Part shown: positions 6,435-53,828 of the stretch, in pieces
How the letters are laid out: the number at the start of each line of letters is the position of its first letter
How positions within the stretch are numbered: position 1 is the first letter of the stretch
From: Vicinamibacteria bacterium
GTDB taxonomy: Bacteria; Acidobacteriota; Vicinamibacteria; Marinacidobacterales; Marinacidobacteraceae
DNA: 64,000 nt
Reading direction: 5' to 3'
NCBI GenBank assembly: GCA_963668695.2
Contig: CAXXLQ010000004.1
Span: 1,984,001-2,048,000, forward strand
Made by a program: the position numbers and the translations under genes
The notes under the pieces: generated by a model
The model's database searches: none
What the model saw: only the letters and a program-made list of their open reading frames with translations
Told to the model about the DNA's origin: nothing

Positions 6435-6635
6435 AACCGCCTATGAACAAGGTCACGCGGCGTTCGGCCGGCGATGCATCCCGGCTGAACCGCGACGCTT
6501 CACGTCGCTCATCGTTGCGCTTCGGTCGAAATACATCAGGTATTCCTCCCTCGCGCGCCTTGTCAACCGGACCCCCACCGGGAGAACTGGGCCTCACCGG
6601 CCTCGGCACTCACGCGACCTCGTCCATAGGCGGTT
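6435..6635. mobile_element. MITE copy 1
   Basis: Terminal inverted repeat AACCGCCTATG...CATAGGCGGTT; core shared with the other copies, in reverse orientation. Confidence 0.8.
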
Positions 6636-6639
6636 ACCC

Positions 6640-8520
6640 ATGACCCGGAGTATCCGAGTCCGTTTTTCCAGGAAATCCCGGGGCGGAGCGCCCCCTGGCG
6701 ATGCGGAGGATCCCGCCGAGGCGTCCGGGGCGGAGCTCGGCGACGCGTTCCAGGAATTCGATCCTTTCCCCGAAGGCGCTCCCATTCTTCCGGACCCGTC
6801 CCTCACCGCCGCCGAAAGAGCCGAAGCGGAGGAGGAGGCGTCCCAGGGCATCCCCACCTCCGCGGCCAGCGCCCCCTCGCCCGGCGAGCGGCGGGTGGAG
6901 GGCCGGTTCCAGGAAGCGATGGCGCGGGCCCGCAGCCGCGCGGAAGAGGCGCTCGCCCGGTCACGCGCGGCGCAGCGCGAGGCGCGGACCCGGGCCATCC
7001 GGGTCGAGGCCGGGGCTGCCCGCGAACGGGACCGCGCCCTCTCCCTCGCCGACGTTCAGGCCGCCTGTCAGCGGATCGACACTCGGCACCTCAACGCGCA
7101 GACCGCCGCGAAGGAACTCGCCGGCTTCCGCCGGGAGCGCGGGATTCCCGACTACGTCACGCCCCGGCCCTCCACCCGGGGCTGGGTGTGGCTCCTGATT
7201 GCGGTTGCCGCCGTCGAAACGACCGCAAACGGACTGCTGCTGCACGCGGCGTCCACCGAGGGGGTCGTATCGAACTGGCTCTTTGCCGCCCTGGTTACGG
7301 CGATGAATGTCGGCCTCCTCGGGTGGCTCGTGGGGGACCTGATCTTCCGCCGGATGCTCGGCGCCGGAGCCCTCCGGCGGTGGCTGCTGGCCGGAAGCCT
7401 CGTGCCCTGTCTGTTCCTCGCCGGGCTGCTTCACTTCGGCTTCGCGCACTACCGGGACGCGGTCTCGGCGCTCGACGCCTCCCAGGCCGCCGCCATCCTC
7501 GATCTGGACGATATCGACGCCACGGCGGACGAAGCGGGCGCCGGGACCGATCCGCATCCGCCGCCGCCTCTGAGTGTGGAAGAGGCGGTCACCGGCGAAC
7601 TGCGGGCCCAGTTCTTCTGGTGGCGGCCGGGTGCGAGCGTCGTGGATCACCCTGCCGATCTGCCGGCGGACGACCATTCGGCGGATGCCGTCAGGCAACT
7701 TGCCGCCGGGAGCGTCGGGTATCGGGCGGAAAACGGGGCTCTGGTGATGGTCGAGGATCCGTTCGCGGGGAGATTCGAGGGGTGGCGCTCGATGCTCCTG
7801 CTCGGAGTCGGCTTCACCGCCTTGCTGCTCGCGGCGTGGAAGTGGTTCGGCGGTCGGGAACCGATTCCCCACTTCGCCCGCCTGCACGGAGCGCGGGAAG
7901 AGACCGCTCGCGCGCTACCGGAGGAATACGAGCGATCCCTGGGCAAACTGAGCGACGAGGAGCGGCGCCACCGGCAGCGGCTCGGCGATGGGGAGTCGGA
8001 GATCCTGGCGCTCGGTAGCCGCCTCGCGGGCCTGGACGCCGCCAGGCGGCGGACGCTCGTTCGCGAGTCGGAGCTCCTGGAGCTCATCGCCGCCGCCGGA
8101 GCGAGCGCCATCGAGGACTTCCGGGAGCTGGGCCGGCAGCGGCGCCTCTCGAGCGATCCGTTCCCGGCGTTTTGGAGTTCGCCCTGGGCGCCGGCGTCTT
8201 CGCGCCGCGACGAGGAGGAAGAGTCCCGCTGGGCGGGGGATCAGGAACGGGCGCTGTTCGAGGTCATGGAGACCGCGGAACGGGTCCGCCTCGCGAACGC
8301 CGCCCATGTCGGCCGGGTGGCGCAGGCGTTTGCGGAGGCGCGGGAACGGCTCGCTCAGGCGGCGCGGATTCCGGGGGCGCGCCGGCGTCCTCCGGGCCCT
8401 CCCGGCGGCGGGCCGCCTTCTCCCCCGGGCGGGAAGCCTTTGCCCCCGGGCGCGGGGGATGTCCGCCTCGTGCCCAGTCAGGCGGGAGAATCCGACCGCC
8501 GCCTGGAGATCGCGTCCTGA
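6640..8520 (+). CDS. Uncharacterised membrane protein (about 4 TM) with helical/coiled-coil flanks
   Basis: Three hydrophobic segments ending in AHYRDA, a fourth later, long charged helical regions. Confidence 0.7.
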   Translation: MTRSIRVRFSRKSRGGAPPGDAEDPAEASGAELGDAFQEFDPFPEGAPILPDPSLTAAERAEAEEEASQGIPTSAASAPSPGERRVEGRFQEAMARARSRAEEALARSRAAQREARTRAIRVEAGAARERDRALSLADVQAACQRIDTRHLNAQTAAKELAGFRRERGIPDYVTPRPSTRGWVWLLIAVAAVETTANGLLLHAASTEGVVSNWLFAALVTAMNVGLLGWLVGDLIFRRMLGAGALRRWLLAGSLVPCLFLAGLLHFGFAHYRDAVSALDASQAAAILDLDDIDATADEAGAGTDPHPPPPLSVEEAVTGELRAQFFWWRPGASVVDHPADLPADDHSADAVRQLAAGSVGYRAENGALVMVEDPFAGRFEGWRSMLLLGVGFTALLLAAWKWFGGREPIPHFARLHGAREETARALPEEYERSLGKLSDEERRHRQRLGDGESEILALGSRLAGLDAARRRTLVRESELLELIAAAGASAIEDFRELGRQRRLSSDPFPAFWSSPWAPASSRRDEEEESRWAGDQERALFEVMETAERVRLANAAHVGRVAQAFAEARERLAQAARIPGARRRPPGPPGGGPPSPPGGKPLPPGAGDVRLVPSQAGESDRRLEIAS

Positions 8521-9287
8521 ACCGTCAGGGCCTGGCCGTTTTCCTCGCGGCAACGATTCTGCCCGGGATCCTGCCCGGGCTGTCGGGTTGCGGCGGGGAG
8601 GGGAACCCATGCACCGATTGGCCGACCGGGTTGCCCCCCCAGACGGTCGTCGTGGTGATGGACGCCACCGACGGTCTTTCCCGTCCCCAGCGGGAGGACA
8701 TGTGGAGCCGGATTCGTCCGGTCGCGGAACGGGCGCCCGCCGGCTCGGTGTTCCACCTCTTCGAGGTCCGCTCGGACGCGCCCGGTGGCGTTCGGGAACT
8801 GGGGGTGGTTCGTCGGCCCCCGCATCCTTGCGAGGTCAACCACTGGTCCGACAACCCCGACCAGCGGGCCGCGCAATGGGGGCCGCGCTACCTGCGCCCG
8901 CTGCGCGACGCACTGGGGGCGATGTCCCGGGCGGCCCCGAGCGACTCCTCGGCCATCCTCCAGGCACTACAGGCCGCCGCGCGCGCCTTCGGCGAATCCC
9001 CGGAGTCCGAAGGACGGCTCATCCTGGTCTCCGATCTCCTGCAGAACGTGGGCGTGGACTTCTACCGGGGGGTCCCCGACTTCGGCCGGTTCCGCGACAG
9101 CGCCCTCTATCGCGAGGTACGCACCCGGTGGTTCGCCGGGGTCCGGCCCACCGTGCTCCAGCTTCCTCCGCGCCGCGAGGGGTCAGTGAATGAAGAGGCG
9201 TTGCGTCGCTTCTGGGCCGCGTACTTCACCGACCAGGGAATGCTGGATGTGGAGACCGCCTTCCTCCCCGTAGAAGGTGCGCGCTAG
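8517..9287 (+). CDS. vWA-like lipoprotein (start uncertain)
   Basis: Lipobox LSGC; VVVVMDATD and LILVSDLLQN MIDAS-like strands; putative CTG start after GGAG overlapping the upstream stop. Confidence 0.6.
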   Translation: MNRQGLAVFLAATILPGILPGLSGCGGEGNPCTDWPTGLPPQTVVVVMDATDGLSRPQREDMWSRIRPVAERAPAGSVFHLFEVRSDAPGGVRELGVVRRPPHPCEVNHWSDNPDQRAAQWGPRYLRPLRDALGAMSRAAPSDSSAILQALQAAARAFGESPESEGRLILVSDLLQNVGVDFYRGVPDFGRFRDSALYREVRTRWFAGVRPTVLQLPPRREGSVNEEALRRFWAAYFTDQGMLDVETAFLPVEGAR

Positions 9288-9298
9288 GGGAGTGGCCA

Positions 9299-9528
9299 GG
9301 AGCGCCGGCCAGTTCTCCCGGTGGGGGCCTCCAGACCGGCATCGCGGCCGCAGGCCGCGAGACTCCCACCGCTACCTTGGCCCATAGCTGGGACCCCATA
9401 CGAGGACGGCGAAACGCCCCTTGGGTTCGTATCCGCCATCCCCATTGTCCGCAGCGACATGCGGGGAATGAAGTACGGGAGTTTCACTCCCCTGCGGGGA
9501 GCGATGCCGGTGTGAACACCGGCGCTCC
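9299..9528. repeat. Inverted pair of REP-like hairpins (REPIN-like)
   Basis: GGAGCGCCGG...ACCGGCATCGC and the inverted GCGATGCCGGTGTGAACACCGGCGCTCC. Confidence 0.7.
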
Positions 9529-9529
9529 T

Positions 9530-9767
9530 AACAGCCTGTGGTGAAACCCGGGTGAGCGCCGAGGTTGGCCAGTTCTCCCGGTGGGGGCGAGGCCCAGTTC
9601 TCCCGGTGGGGCCAGTCCTCCCGGTGGGGGCCCGGCTGACAAGGCGCGTGAGGGAGGAATACCTGGTGTATTTCGACCGAAACGCAACGCAGAACGGAGC
9701 GAAGCGGAGTGGTTCAGCCGGGATGGATCGCCAGCCGAACGCCGCTTGGGTTTTACCACAGGCTGTT
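9530..9767. mobile_element. MITE copy 2
   Basis: TIR AACAGCCTGTGGTGAAACCC...GGGTTTTACCACAGGCTGTT. Confidence 0.85.
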
Positions 9768-9834
9768 AACTAGCGACAGCGGAAGCGCGTATTCCCAACC
9801 ACCGTCACATCGCCGGGCAGGCCAGCGCCGCCCC

Positions 9835-12359: not shown

Positions 12360-12992
12360 TCCTGTTGGACAGCAACGTCCTCATCTACGCTTCCGAACCC
12401 GGCGCCCGCTACCGCTCTTGGGCGACCGATGTCATCGTGGACGCGGTCTCCGCTGCGGGAGCGGCTGTTAACAGCCTGTGGTGAAACTCACGTGAACGCC
12501 GAGGTCGGTGAGGCCCAGTTCTCCCGGTGGGGGTCCGTCCGACGAGGCGCGTGAGGGAGGAATACCGGGTGTATTTCGACTGAAACGCAACGAAGAACGG
12601 AGCGAAGCGGAGTGGTTCGGGCGGGATGCATCGCCGGCCGAGCCCCCACCGGGAGAACTGGGCCGCGTGGGTTTTGCCACAGGCTGTTCACGCCGTCAGT
12701 CTCGCCGAGATCTGCGTCGGTGCCGAGGATCCAGATCTGGTGGTTGCCGAAATCCGTGCGTGGGGGATCGAAATCCTTGACATCCCTGCTTCCGCAGCCG
12801 TGCTTTCGGCTCGTGCATACCGGGCCTACCGCGAGCGCCGGCGCCGCCAGTCGGCGCTCGATGCCCCGGCCACACCCCTCCCTGACTTTTTTCATCGGCG
12901 CCCACGCTGAAGTGATGGGCTACTCGCTGGCGACGGCCGACACGTCCCGATTCGCGACCTACTTTCCCCAAGTGCCCCTGATCACGCCGTGA
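12356..12992 (+). pseudogene. vapC: VapC/PIN toxin interrupted by a MITE and a frameshift
   Basis: MILLDSNVLIY...AAV | MITE | HAVSLAEI...PLPDFF, extra T in the T6 run at 12887-12892, then IGAHA...LATAD...YFP. Confidence 0.85.
12470..12688. mobile_element. MITE copy 3, inside vapC
   Basis: TIR AACAGCCTGTGG...CCACAGGCTGTT; 219 bp. Confidence 0.9.
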
Positions 12993-14831: not shown

Positions 14832-14880
14832 GAGGGGAACCTCCGGACAGGCAATCCTACGTGGAGCGCGAGCGCCGGGT

Positions 14881-16629: not shown

Positions 16630-17474
16630 CGCACCTCGGGCCCTCCGCGCCGATCGTCCCGCACGAAGCGGTCGCGCGCGGGCATCTTGATGCGGGGCAG
16701 CGACTCCGCGTCGAGCGCGTCTCCGGGCTCGAGAATCCCGTTCAACTGAAGGATGAACGCCGTCAGGGCGTACACGTCATCCGGAGGCAGCGTGCCGGGC
16801 GCGGCCTGCGGCATCGCGCGCCGGATGTAGTCGAAGAGCGTTGTCGCGTATGGCCAATAGCTGCCTACCGTGATGCGCCAGCTCCGGTCTTCCGAGAACG
16901 GGAACCGGTCACCGGGTACCCGGCCGGCCAGCGCTTCGAAGTCGGCGCCTTCGCCCCGGGCCCCGTGGCACTGCACGCACTGCAGCCGGTAAAGGGTCTC
17001 CCCGCGCTCCACCGAACCCCGCCCCGGAGGCAGCCCCTCGCCATCGGGGCCGATGTCGATGTCCCAGGCCGCGATCCGTTCCGGACTCGCCGCTTCCCCG
17101 AAGCCGAAGTCCGGGAGGTCGCTGATGTCTCCCAGGCTCCGCTCCCTTGCCTGCCGGAGCGCTTCGAGTTCCGCCTCGTTCAGCAGACCGGGCATCCCCG
17201 GATGGAGATCAGGCCGGGGCGGGGTGGCGGGCTCGGTGTCTCGCGCGGTGGAATCGGGGCCGAGCGCGGCATCGGAAGGGCTGGCCGGGGCCGCTGAGGT
17301 CTCGTCCGTGGACTCGGGGGAACAGGCAACCAGCAGGAGAAGGACTGCGGGAAGAACCCATCCGGGGGACGATCCGGGCGACGATCCGGGCGACGACCCG
17401 GACGAATCGCTGACAGCCGGTGGTGAAACCCACGCGGCCCAGTTCTCCCGGTGGGGGCTCGGCCGGCGATCCAT
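16626..17474 (-). CDS. soxD: Monoheme cytochrome c, SoxD-like lipoprotein (start uncertain, may come from the MITE)
   Basis: [43 protein letters not shown]; lipobox LLVAC. Confidence 0.8.
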
Positions 17475-17904
17475 CCCGGCCAAACAGCCGGTGATGAAAC
17501 CCACGCGGCCCAGTTCTCCCGGTGGGGGCTCGGCCGGCGATCCATCCCGGCTGAACCGCGTCGCTGCGCGCCGCTCATCGTTGCGTTTCGGTCGCAATAC
17601 ACCCGGGCCAGTTCTCCCGGTGGGGGCTCCTCCCTCACGCGCCTTGTCAGCCGGGCCCCCACCGGGAGAACTGGCCCCACCGGGAGAACTGGGCCTCCCC
17701 GGCCTCGGCGCTCCCGCGGGTTCCACCACCGGCTGTTGACCGTATCGCTTCGCGCCGCTCATCGTTGCGTTTCGGTCGCAACACACCCGGGCCAGTTCTC
17801 CCGGTGGGGGCTCCTCCCTCACGCGCCTTGTCAGCCGGCCGCCTCGCCCCCACCGGGAGAACTGGCCAGCCTCGGCGCTCACGCCGGTTCCACCACAGAC
17901 TGTC
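17412..17904. mobile_element. MITE copy 4, composite with internal duplications
   Basis: Ends GACAGCCGGTGGTGAAACC...GGTTCCACCACAGACTGTC; duplicated sub-blocks. Confidence 0.85.
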
Positions 17905-19241: not shown

Positions 19242-19443
19242 AACAGTCCGTGGTGGAACCCGGGTGAGCGCCGAGAGCGGCCAGTTCTCCCGGTGGGGGC
19301 GAGGCGCCCGGCTGACAAGGCGCGTGAGGGAGGAATACCGGGTGTATTTCGACCGAAACGCAACGCAGAGCGCCGCAATGCGGCGCGGTTCAGGCGGGAT
19401 GCCTCGCCGCTCGAACGCCGCCTGGGTTTCCCCACGGGCTGTT
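19242..19443. mobile_element. MITE copy 5
   Basis: TIR AACAGTCCGTGG...CCACGGGCTGTT; shared core. Confidence 0.85.
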
Positions 19444-23166: not shown

Positions 23167-23184
23167 GAAGCGCGGGGACGCCCA

Positions 23185-23470
23185 GGAGCGCCGGTCTTCA
23201 GACCGGCATCGCGGCCGAAGGCCGCGAGACTCCCGCCGCTACCCTCGGCGATTCACCGGGCCTAACCGGGGACGGCGAAACGCCGTGGGGACGCGCGGGT
23301 GGCATTGCGCCATGCCCATTGCGCGCAGCGCCATTCGGGGATTGGCGACGGGAGTTTCGCTCCCCGCAGGGCCGCGAACGTCCCGCTACTCACTCTCACG
23401 CCGAGCGACAGCGGAAGCGCGTACTCCCTAACCACCTCACGTGGCCGGGAAGGCCAGCGCCCCTCCACCT
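23185..23470. repeat. REP-like composite repeat block
   Basis: GGAGCGCCGGTCTTCAGACCGGC hairpin; GCGACAGCGGAAG block also at ~9772 and ~31322. Confidence 0.65.
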
Positions 23471-30854: not shown

Positions 30855-30959
30855 GGCGTACTACGTGGGCGCCGTCCCCGACTGGGTCCGCGTGATTGGC
30901 GGTGGGAGTTTCGCCCCGCTAAGGAGCGCCGGTCTTCAGACCGGCATCGCGGCCGTAGG

Positions 30960-31270
30960 CCGCGAAACTCCCGTCCTATTCAGACTTATGGCACCGAGCT
31001 AACCGGGGACGGCGAAACGCTCGGCTGGCCACCGCCGCAGGCGGACGAAAGCCCCGCTCTATTCAGTCTCATGGCACCGACCTGATCGGGGACGGCGAAA
31101 TGCTCGGCTGGCCACCGCCGCAGGCCGCGAAACTAACGTCCTATTCAGTCTTATGGCACCGACCTGATCGGGGACGGCGAAACGCTCGGCTGGCCACCGC
31201 CGCAGGCCGCGAAACTAACGTCCTGTTCAGTCTTATGGCACCGACTTGGCCGGGGACGGCGAAATGCTCG
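30960..31270. repeat. Tandem ~82-bp repeat, about 4 copies
   Basis: CTATTCAGTCTTATGGCACCGACCTGATCGGGGACGGCGAAA variants at ~30976, 31059, 31141 and 31223. Confidence 0.88.
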
Positions 31271-39016: not shown

Positions 39017-40852
39017 ATGCTCAAGCCTCGATCGCTCCGCGCGTCCGTCGGCGCGCTCCTGCTCCTGCTGCCCGGTCCCGCCGCCGCCCAGTGGTATCCC
39101 GAGCCGGATCTCGTGTTGACCGGCGCCGAGGTTCGGACCGTGGACGCGGAGGACTCGCTCGCCGAGGCCCTCGCCATCAAGGATGGCCGCGTCGTGGCGG
39201 CGGGGACGGCCTTGGAGGTCGGCGCGCTGGCGGGTCCGAACACGCGGACCGTGGACCTCTCCGGGAAGACGGTGATCCCCGGCATCCAGGACTCGCACAT
39301 CCACTTCCTGTCGCTCGGGCGCGACATTACGAACGGCGTGGAGCTGAGTTACGCGGAGTCGGCGGAAGACATCGCGGCCGGGGTACGCAATCGGATCGCG
39401 GAGAGTCGGATCGAGCCCGGCGAGTGGGTGGTGGGGCGCCGCTGGGACCAGTTCAAGTACCCGCAGATGGTGACCCGCTGGCAGCTCGACGAGGCCGCGC
39501 CCGCGAACCCGGTGGCGCTCTACCGGGTGTACCGGGGCGTCGCGGTGAACACCGAGGTGTTTCGCCGCATGGGGATCGAAGACGGCGATCCGTCCACCTG
39601 GCCGTCGTGGTGGCTCGAAGATCCCGACAACTTCACCTTCGAGGACCAGGTCCTGCGGGAGTCCCGGGAGGTGGTAGTGGACGGCGCGGCGGCGACCCGG
39701 GAGATCCCGACGGGAGTTTTTCTCGGGTCGCGGGCATCGCGCCTCGTCACGGAGCGGCCTCCGCCCGATGACTTCGAGGACGATGTCGAGAGCGTCCGGC
39801 TGGGGGTTGAGGAGTTGCTCTCGCTCGGCGTGACCTCCATCGTGGACCCCTCGTCCCGGATGGGACACAACATGCGGGTCTATCAGGAAGCAGTGAACCG
39901 CGGAACCTTGCGGCTCCGGATCGCCGCGGTGTACGAGGGCACCTTCAACACCCACGCGCCCGAGGCCATTTCCTCACACCTCGACGGCATCAAGGTCAAC
40001 AATCTCGGCGACCGCTTCCTCCGCTGGCGCGGAGTCAAGGTGTACGGCGACGGGGGCGTGGGCACCCGGAGCGCCTGGATGTCCGAGCCCTTCCACATGT
40101 GGGACGAAATCGAAGGGGAGCGGAACCTGGGCAATCCCGTGGTGGAAAGCTACCCGGAGCGCGAGGCGCAATACCGCGCCATCCGGAGCCACGGCTGGGA
40201 CCTCCACACCCACAGTTGTGGCGACCAGGCGATGCGCCAGACCGTGGACCTCTACATGGAGCTGCTCGACGAGATGCAGGAGGAGAGCGGAGAACTTCCC
40301 GACCTGCGCTGGAGCGTCATCCACGCCTACTTCCCCATCGAACCCAAGACCCGGGTCCTCGACGACATGGCCCGCTACGGCATCGTGGCCGCCACCAATC
40401 CGGTCTTCAACTGGCAGCAGGGGTTCTCGTTCGCCGCCAACTCGGGGCCGGAGCGGATGGCGCGGCTACAGCCTTTCCGCAGCTACATGCGGGGCGGGGT
40501 GATCATGGCTTCGGGCTCGGATTACGGCGTGACCACTCACAACCCCTGGATGGGCTTCTACGCTCTCCTGACCCGCAAGGACCAGAAATTGGGAATCGTT
40601 CACGGAGAGGACGAGACGGTCACGATTGCGGAGGCGCTCCGCTCCTACACCTGGAACGGCGCTTTCCTGACGCACGACGAGGAGGACCGCGGGAGCCTGG
40701 AGTCGGGCAAACTGGCCGATCTCGTGGTGCTCGATCTTTCGGGGCTCGATGTGCTGGAGGAGGATCCCGAACTCCTCTTCTCGATGCGCGAGCGCGTGGT
40801 GGCCACGATGGTGGAGGGAGAGATCGTGCACGGGAGTCTCCCGTCGCGGTAA
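39017..40852 (+). CDS. YtcJ-like amidohydrolase, secreted
   Basis: PGIQDSHIH, THSCGD, VIHA, SGSDY, GKLADLVVLD. Confidence 0.9.
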   Translation: MLKPRSLRASVGALLLLLPGPAAAQWYPEPDLVLTGAEVRTVDAEDSLAEALAIKDGRVVAAGTALEVGALAGPNTRTVDLSGKTVIPGIQDSHIHFLSLGRDITNGVELSYAESAEDIAAGVRNRIAESRIEPGEWVVGRRWDQFKYPQMVTRWQLDEAAPANPVALYRVYRGVAVNTEVFRRMGIEDGDPSTWPSWWLEDPDNFTFEDQVLRESREVVVDGAAATREIPTGVFLGSRASRLVTERPPPDDFEDDVESVRLGVEELLSLGVTSIVDPSSRMGHNMRVYQEAVNRGTLRLRIAAVYEGTFNTHAPEAISSHLDGIKVNNLGDRFLRWRGVKVYGDGGVGTRSAWMSEPFHMWDEIEGERNLGNPVVESYPEREAQYRAIRSHGWDLHTHSCGDQAMRQTVDLYMELLDEMQEESGELPDLRWSVIHAYFPIEPKTRVLDDMARYGIVAATNPVFNWQQGFSFAANSGPERMARLQPFRSYMRGGVIMASGSDYGVTTHNPWMGFYALLTRKDQKLGIVHGEDETVTIAEALRSYTWNGAFLTHDEEDRGSLESGKLADLVVLDLSGLDVLEEDPELLFSMRERVVATMVEGEIVHGSLPSR

Positions 40853-41564
40853 CAGCCGGTGGTGGAACCCGGGTGAGCGCCGAGGTCGGCCAGTTCTCCC
40901 GGTGGGGCCAGTCCTCCCGGTGGGGGCCCGGCTGACGAGGCGCGTGAGGGAGGAGCCCCCACCGGGAGAACTGGCCCGGGTGTATTTCGACTGAAACGCA
41001 ACGATGAGCGGCGCGCAGCGACGCGGTGAACAGCCGGTGGTGGAACCCGCGGGAGCGCCGAGGCGCCCGGCTGACAAGGCGCGTGAGGGAGGAGCCCCCA
41101 CCGGGAGAACTGGCCCGGGTGTATTCCGACCGAAACGCAACGATGAGCGGCGCGCAGCGACGCGGTGAACAGCCGGTGGTGGAACCCACGTGAGCGCCGA
41201 GGCCGGTGAGGCGCCCGGCTGACAAGGCGCGTGAGGGAGGAATACCGGGTGTATTCCGACCGAAGCGCAACGATGAGCGGCGCGAAGCGACGCGGTTCAG
41301 CCGGGATGGATCGCCGGCCGAACGCCGCGCGGGTTTCATCACCGGTTGTTTGGCCGGTGGTGGATCGCCGGCCGAGCCCCCACCGGGAGAACTGGGCCGC
41401 GTGGGTTTCACTGCCGGCTGTCTGGCCGGGATGGATCGCCGGCCGAGCCCCCACCGGGAGAACTGGGCCGCGTGGGTTTCATCACCGGTTGTTTGGCCGG
41501 GATGCATCGCCGCTCGAGCCCCCACCGGGAGAACTGGGCCGCCGGGGTTTCACCACAGGCTGTT
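40851..41564. mobile_element. MITE copy 7, amplified multimer
   Basis: Left module repeated three times (40851, ~41029, ~41168) and right module repeated; ends CACCACAGGCTGTT. Confidence 0.88.
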
Positions 41565-45888: not shown

Positions 45889-45926
45889 TCGGCCGGCAAA
45901 CGGTCACCCGCCACCCACCGGCTGCC

Positions 45927-46146
45927 AGCAGCCGGTGGATAAAGTGGCGTGAGCGCCGAGGCTGGCCAGTTCTCCCGGTGGGGGCGAGGCGCCCGGCTGA
46001 CAAGGCGTGCAAGGGAGGAGCCCCCACCGGGAGAACTGGCCCGAGTGTATTTCGACCGAAGCGCAACGCAGAGCGCCTCGAAGAGGCGCGGTTCAGCCGG
46101 GATGAATCGCCCGCCGAACGCCGCGTGACTTTGTCCACCGGCTGCT
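45927..46146. mobile_element. MITE copy 8
   Basis: TIR AGCAGCCGGTGGATAAAGT...ACTTTGTCCACCGGCTGCT. Confidence 0.88.
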
Positions 46147-46159
46147 AGTCTCCCGTCCC

Positions 46160-47482
46160 GTGACCGGCGGCAACGGAGGTCCGGGCCGGGGGCTCGGCCT
46201 TTCCCTCTGGACCGCCGCCATGTTCGTGGTGGCGAACATGATCGGGACCGGGGTCTTCACGAGCCTTGGCTTCCAGGTCGCCGCGGTCCCCTCCGAGTTC
46301 CCCGCGCTTCTCCTCTGGGTTGTGGGGGGCCTCGTCGCCCTCGCCGGGGCGCTGGTCTATGGCGAACTCGGGGCGGCGCTTCCCCGTTCCGGCGGGGAGT
46401 ACAACCTGCTCCGCCGGAGTTTTCACCCCGCTGCCGGCTTCGCTGCCGGCTGCGTTTCGGCCACTATGGGATTTGCGGCGCCCACCGCCCTCGCGGCGGT
46501 GGCGATGGCCACCTATCTGCGGCCGTTGTTCCCGGGGATAGAACCCGTCCACTTCGCCGCGGTGGTCGTCGTGGCGTTCACCGCCGTCCACTCCCTGCCG
46601 GTCCGCTGGGGCAGCGGGATCAACAACCTCCTGACCGCCGCCAAGATCGTGCTGGTCATCGCCTTCTGCTGCATGGGGTTCCTGGCCGGGGGGATCTCGA
46701 CGCCGCTGGTCCCGAAGCCGGGCGACTTCGGGCTCCTGCTCAGTCCGGGCTTCGCCGTGTCCCTGGTGTTCGTCTCCTACGCCTATACCGGGTGGAACGC
46801 CGCCGTGTACATCGTCGGGGACCTGAAACGCCCCGAACGCCTCGCCCGGGCCCTGGTGGCGGGCACGCTGCTGGTCACCGTCCTCTATTTCCTGGTCAAT
46901 CTCGTCATCCTGCGCGCGGTCCCCCTCGACGAACTCGCCGGGAGGATCGAGATCGGCTACCTGGCTGCCGAACGCATCCTGGGAGCCGCCGGGGGCCGGG
47001 TGATGGCCGCCGTGCTCGGCCTCGTCCTCGCGTCCACGGTAAGCGCGATGGTGTTCCTCGGACCGCGGGTGGTGCGCGCGATGGGGGAGGACGAGCCGTT
47101 CCTCAGGCCCCTCGGCCGCGTCGGCGCGGGCGGCATTCCCCACCGGGCCCTGTTGCTGCAACTCGCCATCACCCTCGTGCTCCTCTATTCCGGGACCTTC
47201 GAGCAGATCCTGCTCTACGCCGGCTTCACCCTGAACCTGGTGACGGCGGCCGCCGTCGCGGGCGTCTTCCGCCTGCGCGCCGGAAGGATTCCGGACGCCG
47301 TCCCCGGCCGTTTCCGGACCCCGCTCTATCCCCTCGTCCCCCTCTTCTTCCTCGGGATGAGTGGCTGGACCCTCGGCTACACGCTCCTCGAACGGCCCGC
47401 GGAATCCCTGCTCGGGCTCGCCACCGCCGCGGGCGGCGCCGTTATCTACCTGATCGCCAAGCGGGGGTCAGCGCCCGCGTAG
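46160..47482 (+). CDS. APC family amino acid permease
   Basis: ANMIGTGVF, YGELGAALPRSGGEY, YAYTGWN. Confidence 0.92.
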   Translation: MTGGNGGPGRGLGLSLWTAAMFVVANMIGTGVFTSLGFQVAAVPSEFPALLLWVVGGLVALAGALVYGELGAALPRSGGEYNLLRRSFHPAAGFAAGCVSATMGFAAPTALAAVAMATYLRPLFPGIEPVHFAAVVVVAFTAVHSLPVRWGSGINNLLTAAKIVLVIAFCCMGFLAGGISTPLVPKPGDFGLLLSPGFAVSLVFVSYAYTGWNAAVYIVGDLKRPERLARALVAGTLLVTVLYFLVNLVILRAVPLDELAGRIEIGYLAAERILGAAGGRVMAAVLGLVLASTVSAMVFLGPRVVRAMGEDEPFLRPLGRVGAGGIPHRALLLQLAITLVLLYSGTFEQILLYAGFTLNLVTAAAVAGVFRLRAGRIPDAVPGRFRTPLYPLVPLFFLGMSGWTLGYTLLERPAESLLGLATAAGGAVIYLIAKRGSAPA

Positions 47483-47550
47483 GAGCGCCGGCCAGTTCTC
47501 CCGGTGGGGGCCTTCAGACCGGCATCGCGGCCGAAGGCCGCGAAACTCCC
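47481..47550. repeat. REP-like hairpin carrying the 15-bp insert
   Basis: GGAGCGCCGGCC-AGTTCTCCCGGTGGG-GGCCTTCAGACCGGCATCGCGGCCGAAGGCCGCG. Confidence 0.75.
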
Positions 47551-47612
47551 GCTGCCCGACTCCCTCAAGTCGCGTCCAACCCCGGGGATGGTTCCGCGCT
47601 GGGGGTAATGCC

Positions 47613-48338: not shown

Positions 48339-48430
48339 GTCGTTCGCCTCCTGACGGACTGGCGCGTCACGGACCCGGTCTACGAGCAGGGAGCCCGGCC
48401 AGCCGTCGGTGCCCTAGTATAGAAAATCTG

Positions 48431-50014: not shown

Positions 50015-53000
50015 ATGAGATCTTTTTTGTTTAGGACCGTTGCGTTGCTCGGCGTTCTGGGACTCGCGACGGGCGCTTTCGCCCAGACGTTCCAGGGCGG
50101 CATTCGCGGTGTGATTCGGGACGCCGACGGTGGCGTCCTTCCCGGCGTCACCGTGACGCTGAACAACCCGGACACTGGCGTGTCCCGGACCGCGGTTGCA
50201 AACGCAGTCGGGGAGTACAACTTCTCGAGCGTCCAGCCCGGCACCTTCACGCTCCGCGCTGAACTGAGCGGCTTCGCGCCGTACGTGAGCGAAGGGCTCA
50301 TCATCGGCGTTTCTTCGTTCCTGGTCTTGGACGCCACGCTCGTGATCGGTGGAATTGAAGAGACGGTGACCGTCACCGGCGAAACCCCGCTCATCGAGAC
50401 CGCGACCGCTTCGGTTGCTTCGTCCGTCACCCGGGCCGAACTCGACGTGCTGCCGACCCCGGGCCGGAACGTGTTCATCCTCGCGGTGGGCACGCCGAAC
50501 GTGGTCCACACCGGCAACCCGGTATGGGTGAAGCAGTCCGACCAGACGAACTCGTCCCTCCTCTCGCTGGGCGGCGGACCGCTCCGCGGCAACAACTACA
50601 CCGTGGACGGCGTCTCGACGACCGACCTCCGAAACCGCACCGCGATCATCCCGATCTTCGACGCGGTTCAGGAAATGAAGGTCCAGATCAACACCTACGA
50701 CGCCGAAATGGGCCGCACCGGCGGCGGCGTCTTCAACGTGATCGCCCGTGGCGGCACGAACAACTGGGCCGGCGGCGGCACCTGGCAGAAGCGCCCGGGC
50801 AAAGTGGACACGCTCTGGCGCGCGCTCTCCTACACCGACCAGTTGTCCTCTGACGCCAACCCGGACAGGACGTTCGCCGACCGTCCCTTCGACCTGTGGG
50901 GCGGCTCCTTCGGCGGCCCGATCCTGTCGGACCGGACCTTCTTCTGGGCGGCGGCCGAGGGATTCGAGGATCTCCTCGCCGACAACACCGAGGTCATCAT
51001 CCCCACTTCCGCCGAGGCGGCGGGCGACTTCTCCGGGAGCGGGACGACGATCTACAACCCGTTCGACCTCGACGCGAACGGAAACCGGCGGCCCTTCCCC
51101 GGGAACGTGATCCCGTCCCACATGGTCGACCCGGCGGGCCGCGGGCTGGCGCAGTTGCTGACCAACCTGGGGCCGGGCGGTCCGATCAGCTCCTCCGGAG
51201 CCCAGGCCACGACCGCGCTCCAGGCCGACCTGAACCTGACGCACGCCTTCTCGGACAACTGGCAGTCTTCGCTGAGCTACCTGTACTACACGTCGAAGGA
51301 AGGCGCCTTCCAGCAGTACACGGACCTGCTGGGTTTGGACAGCGCCCCCGCCTACGGGATCGGCGCTGCGGACCTGCTCCGGGACGTGCACGTGGTGGCC
51401 TTCAACAACACCTTCGTGGTGGGCGACGCCTCGGTGTTGACGCTGCGCTACGGCCAGATGTACTTCAACGACTCGGTGATCAATCCGGAGTACGGCATTG
51501 ACCAGATCCGGGGCGAGCTCGGTATCCAGGGCGGCTTCCTGGATCAGATCGGCGCGCAGGACGGCTACATCAGTCAGTTCCCATCGGTCAGCGTCTCCAA
51601 CTTCGGCGACGGCGGTTCGACGCACGGCTCCTGGGGCAATACCGACACCCAGTGGTGGTCGCGTGAGGTCAGCGGCACCTACTCGATGTTCCTCGGCAAC
51701 CACACTGTGAAGTACGGCGGACAGTGGCGGCGCATGGGTCTCCACAACGCGAGTTTCAGCAACGGCTTCAGTATGAGCTTCGCGCAGAAGTTCACCCAGG
51801 GCCCGAGCCCCACCGCGCCGGACAGCGGCTCCGGGAGCGGCTTGGCTGACCTGCTGCTCGGCATCCCGAACGGCGGCAGCGCCACGATCGCCCAGGCGGC
51901 CGACGTCTTCATCGACTACTACGGTGGCTTCATCCAGGACGACTGGCGCCCGAGCCAGAACCTGGTGCTGAACCTCGGACTCCGGGTGGAGCGCGAGAGC
52001 GGCCTCATGGAGGACGACAACGGCTTCGCCGTCGGCTGGGACCGGAGCAATCCTTACCCGATGCAGGTCGGCCTGGACACGAGTCTCGAGGGGTCCCTTC
52101 CGGGCTTCCCGCTCCGCGGCGGGCTCATGTATGCGGGCCTCGACGGCAACCCCACCCACCAGTGGGATCCGCCGGGTATCAAGCTCGGACCGCGCGTCGG
52201 CTTCGCCTACACGATCAACCCCGAGACCGTCATCCGTGGCGGTTACGCGGTCTTCTGGGCGCCCTACGCAATCCCGAGCGGCGGCGGCGCGTCGAACCTC
52301 GGGACCTACGGCTACACCAACGTCACCTCCCTCGCGACCAGTGTCGACGGCAAGACCCCGCCGACGGCGACCGCTTCGAACCCGTTCCCGAACGGCATCG
52401 GGAACCCGATCGGGAATGCCAACGGCCGCTTGCAGAACATCGGCGGGAACGTGTACTTCAACGAGCAGTTCCGCGCTTCGCCCTACATCAACAAGTGGTC
52501 CCTCGACCTCCAGCGCGACATCGGCAACGACCTCGCGGTGAAGATCGGCTACGTCGGCAGCCAGGGCGCCGACATCCCCATCGGCGGCACGAACAACTCG
52601 TCCATCAACATTAACCAGTTGGCTGACCAATACCTGTCGCTGGGCGACCGGTTGAACGACGAATATCCCAACCCGTTTTACGGTGATTCGCGCTTCGGGA
52701 GTTTCTCGGGTGCGGAAACGCTGCCGCTCGGCCAGCTCCTGCGTCCGTATCCGCACTTCCGGAACGTCTTGGCCCGCCACGTGAGTTCCGGCAAGTCGCT
52801 CTATAACGCCCTCCGGGTGGAGTTCGAGAAGCGGTTCCGGGGCAACTGGGGCGCCCGGATCAACTACACCTTCACGAAGCACGAGGACAACATCTACGAG
52901 AACAACCAGTTGCTGGAGAACGAGACGAACGTCATCTACAACACGCCCGACGAGTGTGCATTCGCCAAATGCGGGCCGCTGTCGGACGCCGACTACGGCC

Positions 53001-53527
53001 CGTCGCGGGTCCACGTGCCGCACCAGTTCAACATCAACGGCACCTACCGCACCCCCGGAGACAACCCGATCTTCAGCGGCTGGGCGCTTTCAGTGGTGAC
53101 GATCATGCGGAGCGGTTTCCCGGTGGTGGTCTACCAGAACTCGAACCCGCTGAGTTCCTACGGCTTCAACCACCAGCGGCCCACGAGCGCGAACCTGAGC
53201 GGCGGCGGCAACCCGACGGGAAACCACACCAGTTACCTTTCGGCTGGCGACGCGCAGCTCACCCAGGGACTCACGCTGAGCAACTCTCCGAACACCACGG
53301 CCTCGGTGCGCAGCCCGGTCCTCATCAACTGGGACGTCGCGCTCGAGAAGACCACGCGGATCTACGAGGACATGAACCTGACCCTGCGGTTCGAGTTCAT
53401 TGACCTCTTCAACCACGTGAATTGGCGCGGACCCCGCACGATTCTCGGTAACAGCAACTTCGGGAGCATCCCGGGTACCCGCGGCTACCCGAGGACCTTC
53501 CAGTTCATGGGCAAGATCACCTTCTAG
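50015..53527 (+). CDS. TonB-dependent receptor, Oar-like
   Basis: Carboxypeptidase-regulatory N-domain, ETVTVTG, YDAEMGRTGGG, FIQDDW, PRVGFAY, C-terminal F. Confidence 0.93.
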   Translation: MRSFLFRTVALLGVLGLATGAFAQTFQGGIRGVIRDADGGVLPGVTVTLNNPDTGVSRTAVANAVGEYNFSSVQPGTFTLRAELSGFAPYVSEGLIIGVSSFLVLDATLVIGGIEETVTVTGETPLIETATASVASSVTRAELDVLPTPGRNVFILAVGTPNVVHTGNPVWVKQSDQTNSSLLSLGGGPLRGNNYTVDGVSTTDLRNRTAIIPIFDAVQEMKVQINTYDAEMGRTGGGVFNVIARGGTNNWAGGGTWQKRPGKVDTLWRALSYTDQLSSDANPDRTFADRPFDLWGGSFGGPILSDRTFFWAAAEGFEDLLADNTEVIIPTSAEAAGDFSGSGTTIYNPFDLDANGNRRPFPGNVIPSHMVDPAGRGLAQLLTNLGPGGPISSSGAQATTALQADLNLTHAFSDNWQSSLSYLYYTSKEGAFQQYTDLLGLDSAPAYGIGAADLLRDVHVVAFNNTFVVGDASVLTLRYGQMYFNDSVINPEYGIDQIRGELGIQGGFLDQIGAQDGYISQFPSVSVSNFGDGGSTHGSWGNTDTQWWSREVSGTYSMFLGNHTVKYGGQWRRMGLHNASFSNGFSMSFAQKFTQGPSPTAPDSGSGSGLADLLLGIPNGGSATIAQAADVFIDYYGGFIQDDWRPSQNLVLNLGLRVERESGLMEDDNGFAVGWDRSNPYPMQVGLDTSLEGSLPGFPLRGGLMYAGLDGNPTHQWDPPGIKLGPRVGFAYTINPETVIRGGYAVFWAPYAIPSGGGASNLGTYGYTNVTSLATSVDGKTPPTATASNPFPNGIGNPIGNANGRLQNIGGNVYFNEQFRASPYINKWSLDLQRDIGNDLAVKIGYVGSQGADIPIGGTNNSSININQLADQYLSLGDRLNDEYPNPFYGDSRFGSFSGAETLPLGQLLRPYPHFRNVLARHVSSGKSLYNALRVEFEKRFRGNWGARINYTFTKHEDNIYENNQLLENETNVIYNTPDECAFAKCGPLSDADYGPSRVHVPHQFNINGTYRTPGDNPIFSGWALSVVTIMRSGFPVVVYQNSNPLSSYGFNHQRPTSANLSGGGNPTGNHTSYLSAGDAQLTQGLTLSNSPNTTASVRSPVLINWDVALEKTTRIYEDMNLTLRFEFIDLFNHVNWRGPRTILGNSNFGSIPGTRGYPRTFQFMGKITF

Positions 53528-53548
53528 GCGATCTCAACCCAGAACCTT

Positions 53549-53580
53549 GGGGGCGGGCCTTCGGGCCCGCCCCTTTTTTT
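53549..53580 (+). terminator. Rho-independent terminator
   Basis: GGGGCGGGCC-TTCG-GGCCCGCCCC followed by a T run. Confidence 0.88.
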
Positions 53581-53592
53581 GTCGGAGCGCCG

Positions 53593-53828
53593 TGGAGCGC
53601 CGGTCTCTGACCGGCATCGTGGCCCGCAGGGCCACGAAACTCCCATCGCCAGTCCCCGTATGGCGCAGCAGGCAACGAGGATGGCGCAGCGCCACCTAGG
53701 CGTCCCCAGGGCGTTTCGCCGTCCCCGGTTAGGCCCGGTGAATCGGCGAGCATGACGATGGGAGTTTCGCGGCCTTCGGCCGCGATGCCGGCCACTTCTC
53801 CCGGTGGGGGCCTCCAGACCGGCGCTCC
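53593..53828. repeat. Inverted pair of REP-like hairpins
   Basis: GGAGCGCCGGTCTCTGACCGGCATCG ... CGATGCCGG...AGACCGGCGCTCC. Confidence 0.72.

What the first reader, a model, noticed from the sequence alone, without database searches (positions are those of the whole stretch)
6574..53810. A 15-bp micro-insertion (AGTTCTCCCGGTGGG) that colonises other repeats
Seen: about 26 copies counted by eye, in both orientations, only inside MITEs and REP hairpins and never in ordinary coding DNA. Filled and empty versions coexist: GCGCCGGTCTTCAGACC (23188, 30925) versus GCGCC-GGCC-AGTTCTCCCGGTGGG-GGCC-TTCAGACC (47485; similar at 9302). MITE 6 has none while MITE 4 has seven at several internal positions, some in tandem. 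Flanks look like GGCC/GCCC duplications. At ~53795 the insert is flipped relative to the REP flanks. Inference: a tiny unit spreading among unrelated hairpin repeats, for example the footprint or att core of a repeat-targeting element, or a protein-binding site.
Basis: partly seen in the sequence, partly recalled or inferred. Interest (0 to 1): 0.72.

Follow-up and report, generated by a model that had tools for sequence, protein, structure and literature searches.

The report
Tiny 18-base insert colonising bacterial repeats
An 18-base DNA unit, present over a thousand times in this sponge-associated bacterial genome, has been copied into other repeat elements and once into a gene, which makes it one of the smallest repeat units that seem to move on their own.

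Summary
AGTTCTCCCGGTGGG occurs 23 times exactly in the window (0 expected) and 1328 times in the 4.1-Mb assembly.

It is the core of a sharply bounded unit, G-S-C-C-[15]-G-G-C, which adds 18-19 bp where it sits. Almost all copies are nested in two hosts:
- a TA-flanked MITE, whose length is 181 + 18n bp for 0-5 units;
- a two-hairpin REP.

It is more than a module of those hosts:
- The same unit sits in frame in an acrB-like gene of G000 and G001, and in none of the 14 other genomes of the genus.
- A congener, G010, has many MITEs but only 6 exact units.
- Another genus uses other sites and its own variant.
- 98-99.7 % identical haplotigs differ in filled and empty state.

No larger element rebuilds the motif. 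No RAYT or reverse transcriptase was found.

Best reading: a very small dispersed mobile repeat, like the cyanobacterial SDRs. How it inserts is unknown. A host function is not excluded.

The parts
6574..6588 (-). Unit copy in a partial MITE, at site D
   Evidence: Exact match; context seen and classed.
9292..9380 (+). REP, filled: the unit at 9311-9325 (+) lies in the 5' arm of hairpin 1
   Evidence: 19 extra bases relative to the empty REPs.
9531..9766 (.). MITE of 236 bp holding the units at 9571 (site E) and 9596, plus the variant copy at 9614 (an 18-bp tandem with 9596)
12471..12687 (.). MITE of 217 bp with 2 units: 12517 (+) and 12645 (-, site A beside the right inverted repeat)
17413..17903 (.). 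MITE array with 7 units: 17441, 17512, 17610 and 17794 (+); 17658, 17676 and 17849 (-). 17658/17676 form an 18-bp tandem
   Evidence: The inverted unit pair within 17600-17700 folds into a long stem, z -6.3.
19243..19442 (.). MITE of 200 bp with 1 unit, at 19283 (+, site E)
23179..23245 (+). REP, empty (GCCGGTC-TTCA-GACCGGC plus a second hairpin)
   Evidence: It folds as two hairpins, z -3.5.
30917..30983 (+). REP, empty
40852..41563 (.). Composite MITE array. Units at 40892 (+), 40910 (+, variant) and 40958, 41097, 41379, 41450, 41521 (-). Includes 71-bp sub-repeats, each with a filled site A
41169..41349 (+). All-empty 181-bp MITE unit, the reference for the empty state
   Evidence: 0 units. 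It folds as a long imperfect hairpin, z -4.8. Used as the query.
45923..46151 (.). MITE with units 45968 (+, site E) and 46023 (-, site B). The whole MITE is missing from a related strain
   Evidence: A contig of run X5 joins 45922 to 46152.
47476..47562 (+). REP, filled: unit at 47494-47508 (+)
   Evidence: Contigs of X1, X13 and X14 reach 47509.
53752..53840 (-). REP in reverse orientation, filled with a one-mismatch unit (53794-53808, + strand). In REP orientation the unit lies in the 3' arm and is inverted

Best explanation
The 15-mer is the core of a very small dispersed repeat unit. Its conserved extent is 22 nt, GGCC-AGTTCTCCCGGTGGG-GGC, and it adds 18-19 bp where it inserts.

Shown:
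- The unit is discrete, with fixed ends.
- It has entered many different sites, mostly G/C-rich stems of a REP and of a TA-flanked MITE.
- At least once it entered a unique protein-coding gene, so entry does not depend on homology between donor and target.
- It makes no regular target duplication. Between 0 and 4 target bases are replaced at the junction.
- It forms 18-bp head-to-tail tandems, and it is gained or lost between 98-99.7 % identical strains.

Most of its roughly 1200-1300 copies were then multiplied passively, when the host MITEs and REPs multiplied and recombined.

Inferred: it is selfish or neutral rather than a host signal, because a congener keeps the MITEs but has only a few, mostly mutated, units.

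The insertion step itself is not shown. I split it roughly evenly between two routes:
- a sequence-specific trans-acting activity not yet identified, favoured by the sharp ends, the near-identity of copies and the lineage-specific variants;
- short templated copying at stalled forks or breaks, using the GCC/GGC ends as microhomology, favoured by the imprecise junctions, the lack of duplication and the lack of any candidate enzyme.
For: Abundance.
- 1328 exact copies in the assembly, 673 forward and 655 reverse.
- 1239 copies in the haplotig-free 3.77 Mb.
- 485 clusters on contig C4.

Fixed ends. Over 141 context clusters, one vote each, the conserved flanks are -4 G 115, -2 C 129, -1 C 140, +15 G 137, +16 G 117 and +17 C 118. 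Beyond these positions the composition is background.

Quantised host. MITEs with 0, 1, 2, 3, 4 and 5 units have median lengths 181, 199, 217, 235, 253 and 272 bp, from 83, 53, 53, 58, 47 and 15 elements.

Dimorphic sites, found by anchoring on the flanks.
- Site A: 243 filled, 185 empty.
- Site B: 280 filled, 260 empty.

Many sites. Classes A 341, B 300, E 155, D 89, F 63, tandem 148+56, REP 78+21+7, other 69, edge 1, of 1328 copies.

De novo insertion in unique DNA. An acrB-like gene (ACR_tran, E 4.9e-239) carries the unit in frame. It is present in G000 and G001 and absent from the other 14 of 16 genomes of the genus. A second copy in unique DNA, between genes at C4:3267756, is shared exactly by G000, G001, G004 and G008.

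Host without unit. The MITE backbone matched 29 of 41 genomes.
- G010, same genus and in 2 contigs, has 214 first-look MITE candidates but only 6 exact and 16 one-mismatch units.
- G020 has 101 candidates and 1 unit.

Lineage-specific sites and variants. Loci of record OZ246946, which I equate with G018 because its coordinates match G018's places, have units at positions that G000 leaves empty. The variant GGTTCTCCCGGTAGG counts 106, 53 and 16 in the three genus-g4 genomes, against 0-5 in 14 genus-g1 genomes.

Turnover. In 273,333 aligned columns between haplotigs there were 164 concordant calls and 10 differing calls. The differences include 3 canonical swaps at site D and 2 at site B.
- For one D swap, no other copy in the assembly shares even 20 bp of identical flank.
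- For another, the two alleles are identical for at least 80 bp on each side, and the assembly holds 2 other filled copies with identical flanks at 30 bp and none at 40 bp.

Homogeneity. The minor-allele fraction per site is 0.2-0.4 % inside the unit and 3-7 % in the anchor flanks.
Against: No enzyme or master copy was found, so 'mobile' rests on comparative evidence only.

Most copies can be explained by host amplification. The number of truly independent insertions may be tens rather than hundreds.

The MITE family is a mosaic. Linkage between flank SNPs is as low as linkage between a SNP and the fill state, so recombination among copies, rather than fresh insertion, could create many filled/empty combinations.

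The direction of the haplotig swaps, gain or loss, could not be set. The MITEs concerned are absent from the outgroup genomes.

Three observations would also fit a selected host signal:
- the exact 15-mer is conserved across several genera;
- it is kept exactly at an orthologous intergenic site in four species;
- its mismatch density between haplotigs is lower, 4 of 1869 against 38 of 5778 in the flanks. That comparison is biased, because one allele was required to be exact.
Confidence: 0.6

Rival explanations
1. A true micro-transposon. A dedicated, still unidentified trans-acting protein recognises the 22-nt unit, copies or excises it, and inserts it at GGCC-like sites.
For: - The ends are sharp and constant over 141 contexts.
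- 1272 exact copies stand against 270 one-mismatch copies on C4, and 191 of those 270 are two specific variants.
- The commonest flank pair per context is GGCC..GGCC, in 33 of 141.
- Sixteen empty REPs carry GCCGGCC, the exact pre-insertion form.
- The pattern of bursts and decay among congeners, 1328 copies against 6, resembles the life cycle of a mobile element.
- There is a genus-specific variant.
Against: - No Y1/RAYT and no RVT_1.
- No Y2 transposase, but that search's controls were silent, so the result is uninformative.
- Only a sub-threshold TnpB-like match.
- Junctions are not uniform. The net gain is 18 or 19 bp and 0-4 target bases are replaced.
- Units take both orientations relative to the REP arm.
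- 18-22 nt is shorter than any substrate known to me for a transposase (recalled, not tested).
Confidence: 0.3
2. A host-selected signal, such as a binding site for a nucleoid or regulatory protein, or a DNA-uptake-type sequence. Selection keeps it exact, and it merely accumulates in permissive repeats.
For: - The exact 15-mer is found in 15 of 15 other genomes of the genus and in 4 further genera of the family (5 of 16 genera in all). The reversed control pattern gave 0 everywhere.
- The two strands hold equal numbers, with no replichore bias. There are 485 clusters with a median gap of 5 kb.
- Genus-level variants resemble uptake-sequence dialects.
- Inverted pairs form strong stems.
- Mismatch density between haplotigs is lower inside units (biased).
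Against: - G010 keeps the MITEs but has 6 exact and 16 variously mutated copies.
- Two other genera of the family (3 genomes) have none, and genus g6 has a single copy in one of two genomes.
- Copy number ranges from 5 to 1328 within one genus.
- It arises as an 18-bp indel, not by point mutation, and is nearly confined to repeats.
- Filled and empty states are about 50:50 at the main sites, which is not what a required site would show.
Confidence: 0.15
3. Only a module of certain MITE and REP subfamilies. It arose once or twice and was spread purely by host transposition, segmental duplication and recombination.
For: - Ten flank classes hold 1258 of 1328 copies.
- The MITE family is a recombining mosaic.
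- Fill states at different sites of one MITE are positively associated, odds ratio 2.5, p 2e-7.
Against: - The in-frame insertion in a unique acrB-like gene has no flank homology to the repeats.
- The MITE and the REP are unrelated, yet both are filled.
- Another genus has new positions and a unit variant.
- Congeners have abundant unit-free MITEs.
- One allelic swap has no possible donor sharing 20 bp of flank.
Confidence: 0.05

Closest known systems
Small dispersed repeats (SDR4-6, above all SDR5) of Nostocaceae cyanobacteria (Elhai et al. 2008, Genome Res 18:1484)
   Same: Both are units of about 20 nt that are dispersed, near-identical, sometimes in tandem and thought to be mobile. [quoted passage not shown] Here the commonest arrangement is GGCC[15]GGCC inside a stem. 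In both cases the mechanism is unknown.
   Different: - The phylum differs: Acidobacteriota-titled MAGs, with the window's DNA found in runs labelled sponge metagenome.
- This unit is shorter: 18-19 bp added and 22 nt conserved, against 21-27 nt, a figure I recall and did not see.
- The sequence is different and the hosts are different, a TA-flanked MITE and a REP.
- The original paper is not held. I saw only citing passages, and further resemblances are recalled.
BIME mosaic elements of E. coli (palindromic units combined with short extra motifs such as the IHF-binding L motif)
   Same: Short conserved motifs of 10-30 nt are combined in variable numbers with REP-type hairpins, giving modular repeats.
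   Different: As far as I recall, BIME motifs lie between the palindromic units, are not inserted within stems, and are not known to enter unique genes. This comparison comes from memory, apart from a one-line mention of PUs in PMC2884548.
REP / REPIN elements mobilised by RAYT (HUH Y1) transposases
   Same: These are short GC-rich hairpin repeats in hundreds of copies. One host element here is a classic two-hairpin REP.
   Different: The unit has no significant fold of its own (z +0.64). No Y1_Tnp gene was found in the genome, although the search's controls responded in 6 of 14 genomes. The unit is nested inside REPs rather than being one.
DNA uptake sequences (DUS of Neisseriaceae, USS of Pasteurellaceae)
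   Same: Both are exact 10-15-mers in about a thousand copies, equal on both strands, often in inverted pairs, with lineage-specific dialects.
   Different: From recall, DUS and USS arise by point mutation and lie in unique coding and intergenic DNA. Here the motif comes as an 18-bp indel almost only within repeats and is nearly lost in a congener.
Rickettsia palindromic elements (in-frame selfish insertions in genes)
   Same: Both are repeats that can sit in frame inside an intact protein-coding gene.
   Different: RPEs are about 100-150 bp (recalled). Here the insert is 18 bp, and only one clear coding case was found in G000.

Membership tests
Small dispersed repeats (SDR, Elhai 2008) | Very short (about 20-27 nt), dispersed, near-identical copies | tested here: met
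   There are 1328 exact 15-mers. The conserved unit is 22 nt and the minor-allele fraction inside it is 0.2-0.4 % per site. The net added length of 18-19 bp lies just under the recalled SDR range.
Small dispersed repeats (SDR, Elhai 2008) | Presence or absence at otherwise conserved or orthologous sites, the evidence of mobility | tested here: met
   The acrB-like gene is filled in 2 of 16 genomes of the genus. Haplotigs show swaps.
Small dispersed repeats (SDR, Elhai 2008) | Precise insertion within a short palindrome (SDR5 in HIP1) | tested here: inconclusive
   GGCC..GGCC flanks occur in 33 of 141 contexts, and 16 empty REPs have GGCC at the site. Other sites replace 1-4 non-GGCC bases.
Small dispersed repeats (SDR, Elhai 2008) | Sequence or taxon relation to the cyanobacterial families | not tested
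   The paper and its sequences are not held. The taxon here differs.
MITE (non-autonomous DDE transposon) | Terminal inverted repeats and a target-site duplication | tested here: not met
   For the 18-bp unit, only 3-4 nt of inverted symmetry (GCC/GGC) exist and there is no regular duplication. The HOST element does meet the test: a 19-nt inverted repeat, TA..TA flanks in 149 pairs (the commonest of the flank pairs), and empty sites in G001 and G004.
REP/REPIN with RAYT | A hairpin-forming unit and a cognate Y1 HUH transposase gene | tested here: not met
   The unit alone folds no better than shuffles. There was no PF01797 match in G000, which is 91.7 % complete, while controls responded in 6 of 14 genomes.
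Footprint or att core of IS110/IS1111, an integrase or a retroelement | A larger element whose ends or target rebuild the motif | tested here: not met
   No split-motif pairs lie 200-8000 bp apart. The one IS110 element has no motif at its ends. No RVT_1 was found. Integrase families were not scanned.
DNA uptake sequence | The motif is spread through unique coding and intergenic DNA, arising by substitution | tested here: not met
   No copy has both 40-bp flanks free of repeated 13-mers under the strict rule. Only a few copies lie in low-copy contexts. It appears as an 18-bp indel.
DNA uptake sequence | Biased uptake through a competence receptor | not testable with these tools
   This needs transformation or uptake assays.
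Known RNA family | A match to an Rfam model | tested here: not met
   The only hit in the window is suhB/mmgR at 53511-53587, which is unrelated to the repeats.

The most novel reading that the evidence does not exclude
The unit is the smallest mobile DNA yet seen, with 18 bp added and 22 nt recognised. It would be moved by an unidentified trans-acting activity that reads the 15-mer core and inserts it at GGCC-like sites in DNA stems, independently of homology. The contrast between unit-rich genomes (G000, G001, G004, G008, G018) and unit-poor but MITE-rich genomes (G010, G020) in one family would then allow the responsible gene to be found by phylogenetic profiling. That could also explain how the cyanobacterial SDRs move.
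Probability: 0.3. Interest if true: 0.9.

Novelty: new variant of a known kind. Interest (0 to 1): 0.7.

Why it matters
Repeats shorter than about 30 nt that behave as mobile units have, to my knowledge, been described only once, as the cyanobacterial SDRs of 2008. As far as I know their mechanism is still unsolved.

This is a second, phylogenetically unrelated case with cleaner evidence:
- the host MITE length is quantised;
- there is an in-frame insertion in a conserved gene with 14 empty orthologues;
- strains of one population differ in state;
- congeners range from 5 to 1328 copies.

That spread makes the open question, how an 18-bp sequence gets copied into new sites, approachable by comparative genomics.

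It also has a practical side. Such units inflate the repeat content of symbiont genomes, break short-read assemblies at every copy, and can add six codons to proteins.

Tried and rejected
- Larger element. The IS110 element, the IS630-like element, RAYT, RVT_1, Y2_Tnp (controls silent and so uninformative) and TnpB (sub-threshold) gave no link to the motif. Two pairs of MITE inverted repeats 1.8 and 2.1 kb apart merely flank ordinary genes.
- Linkage. I tested whether the fill state is unlinked to flank SNPs. It is, but SNP-to-SNP linkage is equally low, so the test does not separate fresh insertion from recombination.
- Polarity of the haplotig swaps. The MITEs at the two loci tried are absent from G001 and G004 or replaced in G008, so gain and loss cannot be told apart.
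- Read-level polymorphism. All runs offered are Logan contigs, which break at the repeats. They show that the unit at 47494 and the strain-level MITE absence exist, but say nothing about allele frequencies.
- Replication-strand bias. None was seen.
- Structure. There is no own fold of the unit. Insertion sites in the folded MITE lie in stems, next to internal loops and in a small hairpin arm, with no consistent rule.
- Viruses. One match of the 18-mer in IMG/VR lies in an unrelated AT-richer context and I read it as chance.
- The 'Gammaproteobacteria' MAG contig with two units (L086) matches G000 C4:383.7k at 94.6 %. It is probably a mis-binned relative and not evidence of spread across phyla.
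- G010 coaBC. A unit lies inside a hypervariable linker of the gene, and the alignment is too poor to call it a clean insertion.
- Idea considered and dropped: a blunt HaeIII-type fragment ligated into GG^CC. The acrB target and sites A, B, D and F have no GGCC.
- Idea considered and dropped: telomerase-like addition by a reverse transcriptase. No such enzyme was found.
- Tools and texts not available. The Elhai 2008 paper is not held. Paper supplements were not consulted.
- Print searches with no hits: 'Marinacidobacterium' and the 15-mer and its complement. The search sponge + Acidobacteria + symbiont + miniature inverted-repeat gave one paper, whose title and abstract opening concern an unrelated topic.


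Full report
**1. The observation**

AGTTCTCCCGGTGGG occurs 23 times exactly in the 64-kb window, and none of 100 dinucleotide-preserving shuffles had a single match. With up to 2 mismatches there are 27 matches. Of the 4 extra:
- two are the T4>C variant, each the second copy of an 18-bp tandem (9614, 40910);
- one is a G2>C copy inside a REP (53794);
- one (62901, 2 mismatches) lacks the usual flanks and is probably chance.

The filled and empty REP pairs are real. Aligned, the empty REPs at 23188 and 30925 lack 19 bases (GGCC + 15-mer) that the REPs at 9302 and 47485 have. They read GGTC where the filled ones read GGCC. The REP at 53795 lies in the opposite orientation and carries the unit inverted in its other arm. 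The MITE array 17413-17903 has 7 units, and the 181-bp copy 41169-41349 has none.

**2. Scale and taxon**

The window is C4:1984001-2048000 of a 4.095-Mb assembly in 4 contigs with 67.5 % G+C. The assembly holds 1328 exact copies, 673 forward and 655 reverse.

Part of the assembly is duplicated as strain haplotigs, 97.6-99.7 % identical:
- C1 matches C4:304-421 kb;
- C3 matches C4:3505-3538 kb;
- C4:13-148 kb matches C4:3783-3913 kb.

The haplotig-free 3.77 Mb holds 1239 copies. They form 485 clusters on C4 with a median gap of 5 kb and no replichore bias.

In a scan of one genome per species, records with many hits are titled Candidatus Marinacidobacterium or Vicinamibacteria MAGs. Hits elsewhere are singletons.

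Among 41 related genomes (G000 included), 21 have the motif:
- all 15 other genomes of the genus have it, with 5 to 667 copies;
- 5 of 16 genera have it in all;
- none of the 16 genomes of the two other families of the order has it;
- the reversed control pattern gave 0 everywhere.

Runs that hold the window's DNA are labelled sponge metagenome, or carry coded organism names.

**3. Anatomy of the unit**

I clustered the copies into 141 contexts by their outer flanks and gave each context one vote. Conservation extends exactly from -4 to +17. The counts are G 115, G/C 99/40, C 129 and C 140 on the left, and G 137, G 117 and C 118 on the right. Beyond that, composition drops to background. The unit is therefore G-S-C-C-[15]-G-G-C, 22 nt.

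The commonest flank pair is GGCC..GGCC, in 33 of 141 contexts. Head-to-tail tandems have a period of 18. Alone, the unit folds no better than shuffled sequence (z +0.64).

**4. The hosts**

Host 1 is a MITE.
- Its inverted repeat is ACAGCC[G/T]GTGGTG[A/G]AACCC, with 1034 matches on C4.
- There are 337 simple forward-reverse pairs, and TA..TA is the commonest flank pair, in 149 of them.
- Empty sites in G001 and G004 and a contig of run X5 show that it inserts with a TA duplication.
- An IS630-like gene, flanked by TA and by the inverted repeat TGTGGTGTCC, lies at C4:667.1-668.2 kb. It may be the mobiliser, but it does not carry the unit.

MITE length is quantised by the number of units:

| Units | Median length (bp) | Elements |
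|---|---|---|
| 0 | 181 | 83 |
| 1 | 199 | 53 |
| 2 | 217 | 53 |
| 3 | 235 | 58 |
| 4 | 253 | 47 |
| 5 | 272 | 15 |

Host 2 is a two-hairpin REP, GGAGCGCC-GGTCTTCAGACC-GGCATC-GCGGCCGAAGGCCGC-GAGACTCCC (z -3.5 when empty). In the filled form the outer 5 bp of hairpin 1 still pair and the unit enlarges the loop.

Classes of the 1328 copies:

| Class | Copies |
|---|---|
| Site A | 341 |
| Site B | 300 |
| Site E | 155 |
| Tandem, first copy | 148 |
| Site D | 89 |
| REP 5' arm | 78 |
| Other | 69 |
| Site F | 63 |
| Tandem, second copy | 56 |
| REP variant, 3' arm | 21 |
| REP reversed | 7 |
| Contig edge | 1 |

**5. Filled against empty**

Anchoring on the flanks, which avoids ascertainment on the motif, shows that the main sites are strictly dimorphic:
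- Site A: 185 empty (CGT) and 243 filled (CCC[15]GGC).
- Site B: 260 empty (TAT) and 280 filled (GCC[15]GGC).

Some forms are clean 18-19-bp insertions:
- site E (GGCG to GGCC[15]GGCG);
- the C-type REP (16 empties read GCCGGCC);
- the GGG form of site F;
- the two-copy form of site D.

Elsewhere 1-4 target bases differ at the junction. There is no regular target duplication.

Inside the unit the minor-allele fraction is 0.2-0.4 % per site, against 3-7 % in the anchor flanks.

Every flank haplotype occurs in both states. SNP-to-SNP linkage is equally low, so the family is a recombining mosaic and this test is not decisive. Fill states at different sites of one MITE are positively associated (odds ratio 2.5, p 2e-7), yet all combinations are common.

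**6. Evidence that the unit is more than a host module**

(a) Insertion in a unique gene. An intact acrB-like gene (ACR_tran, E 4.9e-239, 1039 aa) carries the unit in frame at C4:394435. Its codon GCG is replaced by GGC CCC CAC CGG GAG AAC TGG, a gain of 18 bp. The insert is present in G000 (both haplotigs) and in G001. It is absent from the 14 other genomes of the genus, whose sequences align without a gap on both sides. The flanks have no similarity to the MITE or the REP, so homologous conversion cannot explain it.

(b) A unique intergenic copy. The copy at C4:3267756 is shared exactly by G000, G001, G004 and G008.

(c) Hosts without units. The MITE backbone is much more widespread than the unit, matching 29 of 41 genomes. 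G010 is in the same genus and in 2 contigs. It has 214 first-look MITE candidates, with full-length 181-bp matches, but only 6 exact and 16 one-mismatch units carrying varied mismatches. G020 has 101 candidates and a single unit.

(d) Lineage-specific sites and variants. In genus g4, loci of record OZ246946 show the homologous MITE carrying units at positions that are empty in G000. I equate that record with G018 because its coordinates match G018's places. Genus g4 also carries a variant, GGTTCTCCCGGTAGG. That variant counts 106, 53 and 16 in the three g4 genomes, against 0-5 in 14 g1 genomes.

(e) Turnover between haplotigs. Across 273,333 aligned columns, 164 motif calls were concordant and 10 differed. 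The differences include:
- three canonical swaps at site D;
- two canonical swaps at site B;
- tandem 2 against 1 copies;
- a 15-bp partial deletion;
- a 1-nt deletion;
- a 50-bp REP-plus-unit indel.

For one D swap, no other copy in the assembly shares even 20 bp of identical flank. For another, the two alleles are identical for at least 80 bp on each side, and the assembly holds 2 other filled copies with identical flanks at 30 bp and none at 40 bp. Any conversion tract would therefore have to be very short.

**7. What it is not**

- Not an artefact. It stands in many independent assemblies and in short-read contigs of three studies.
- Not the ends or target of a larger element. No orphan half-motif pairs lie 200-8000 bp apart. 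The single IS110 element, inserted in a REP, lacks the motif.
- No RAYT, no RVT_1 and no TnpB above threshold. The Y2 search was uninformative.
- No Rfam family covers the repeats.
- No meaningful match in IMG/VR.
- The 15-mer, its complement and the genus name gave no paper.

**8. Mechanism**

Shown:
- the unit is discrete with fixed ends;
- entry is independent of homology;
- there is no regular duplication;
- it forms 18-bp tandems;
- it is gained or lost on the time scale of about 1 % sequence divergence;
- it is amplified passively with its hosts.

Inferred: it is selfish or neutral, because a congener retains the hosts but lets the unit decay.

Not shown: the insertion chemistry. The sharp ends, the near-identity of copies and the lineage-specific variants point to a sequence-specific trans-acting activity. 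The imprecise junctions, the 18/19 ambiguity in the G run, the lack of duplication and the lack of a candidate enzyme point to short templated copying. That would be a template switch or break repair using the GCC/GGC ends as microhomology, in DNA prone to hairpin stalling. I cannot separate the two.

A selected host signal remains possible at about 15 %. In its favour are the conservation across genera, the exact retention at an orthologous site in four species and fewer mismatches inside units between haplotigs. Those counts are 4 of 1869 against 38 of 5778 in the flanks and 2040 of 264,790 in the background. That comparison is biased, because one allele had to be exact.

**9. Comparison with known systems**

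The closest described system is the small dispersed repeats of Nostocaceae (Elhai et al. 2008). I could see only citing passages:
- SDR5 uses HIP1 as an insertion site, and no SDR is known outside Nostocaceae (PMC5861425);
- SDRs are listed among unexplained short repeats (PMC3116915).

The present unit works like an SDR but is in another phylum, is shorter, and has different hosts. Membership by sequence could not be tested.

It fails the defining tests for a MITE, a REPIN with RAYT, an IS footprint and an uptake sequence (see Membership tests).

**10. Verdict**

This is a real, abundant, sharply defined 18-bp nested insertion unit and a new variant of the 'very small mobile repeat' kind. The mechanism is open, and the contrast among congeners is unusually favourable for solving it.

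Noticed in passing
window 53511-53587 (+): An Rfam match to suhB/mmgR sRNA (RF00519, 45.4 bits against a gathering score of 41) lies just upstream of the reversed, filled REP at 53752-53840.
   Followed up: no
G000 contigs C1, C3 and C4:13-148 kb: The assembly carries strain haplotigs, 97.6-99.7 % identical to other parts of C4. This probably explains the 9.3 % 'contamination' figure and inflates the copy count from 1239 to 1328.
   Followed up: yes
G000 C4:~667,066-668,230 (outside the window): An IS630-like element (DDE_3) flanked by TA, with inverted repeat TGTGGTGTCC.., sits between two MITEs. Its repeat shares the heptamer TGTGGTG with the MITE's inverted repeat, so it is a candidate mobiliser of the MITE family.
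   Followed up: partly
G000 C4:~482,100-483,900 (outside the window): The single IS110-family element is inserted inside a REP hairpin (GCCGACCGGAGGTC | element | GGTCCGGCGTTCC), which is typical REP targeting. Neighbouring REPs carry mutated units.
   Followed up: partly
window 41331-41563 and 17413-17502: The MITE's right-end module (71 bp: inverted repeat plus site A) is itself tandemly repeated up to four times, and each copy has a filled site A.
   Followed up: partly
window ~53840-53860: A run of 12 C (CCACCCCCCCCCCCCGAGC) lies directly after the REP. It is a possible slippage-prone tract.
   Followed up: no
L124 (G010:C1:663437): An exact unit lies inside the hypervariable Pro/Gly-rich linker of a coaBC-like gene of G010. 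It is a possible second in-frame coding insertion, but the linker aligns too poorly with G000 to be sure.
   Followed up: partly
G000 C4:3267800-3267900 (L155): Downstream of the unique intergenic unit lies an array of roughly 13-bp repeats (TCAGCGGACCCAA-like). Its copy number differs among G000, G001, G004 and G008.
   Followed up: no
L136 (G010) and G000 C4:~668,240: A mini-MITE of about 85-90 bp consists only of the two inverted-repeat modules joined at one unit. It is present in both G010 and G000.
   Followed up: no
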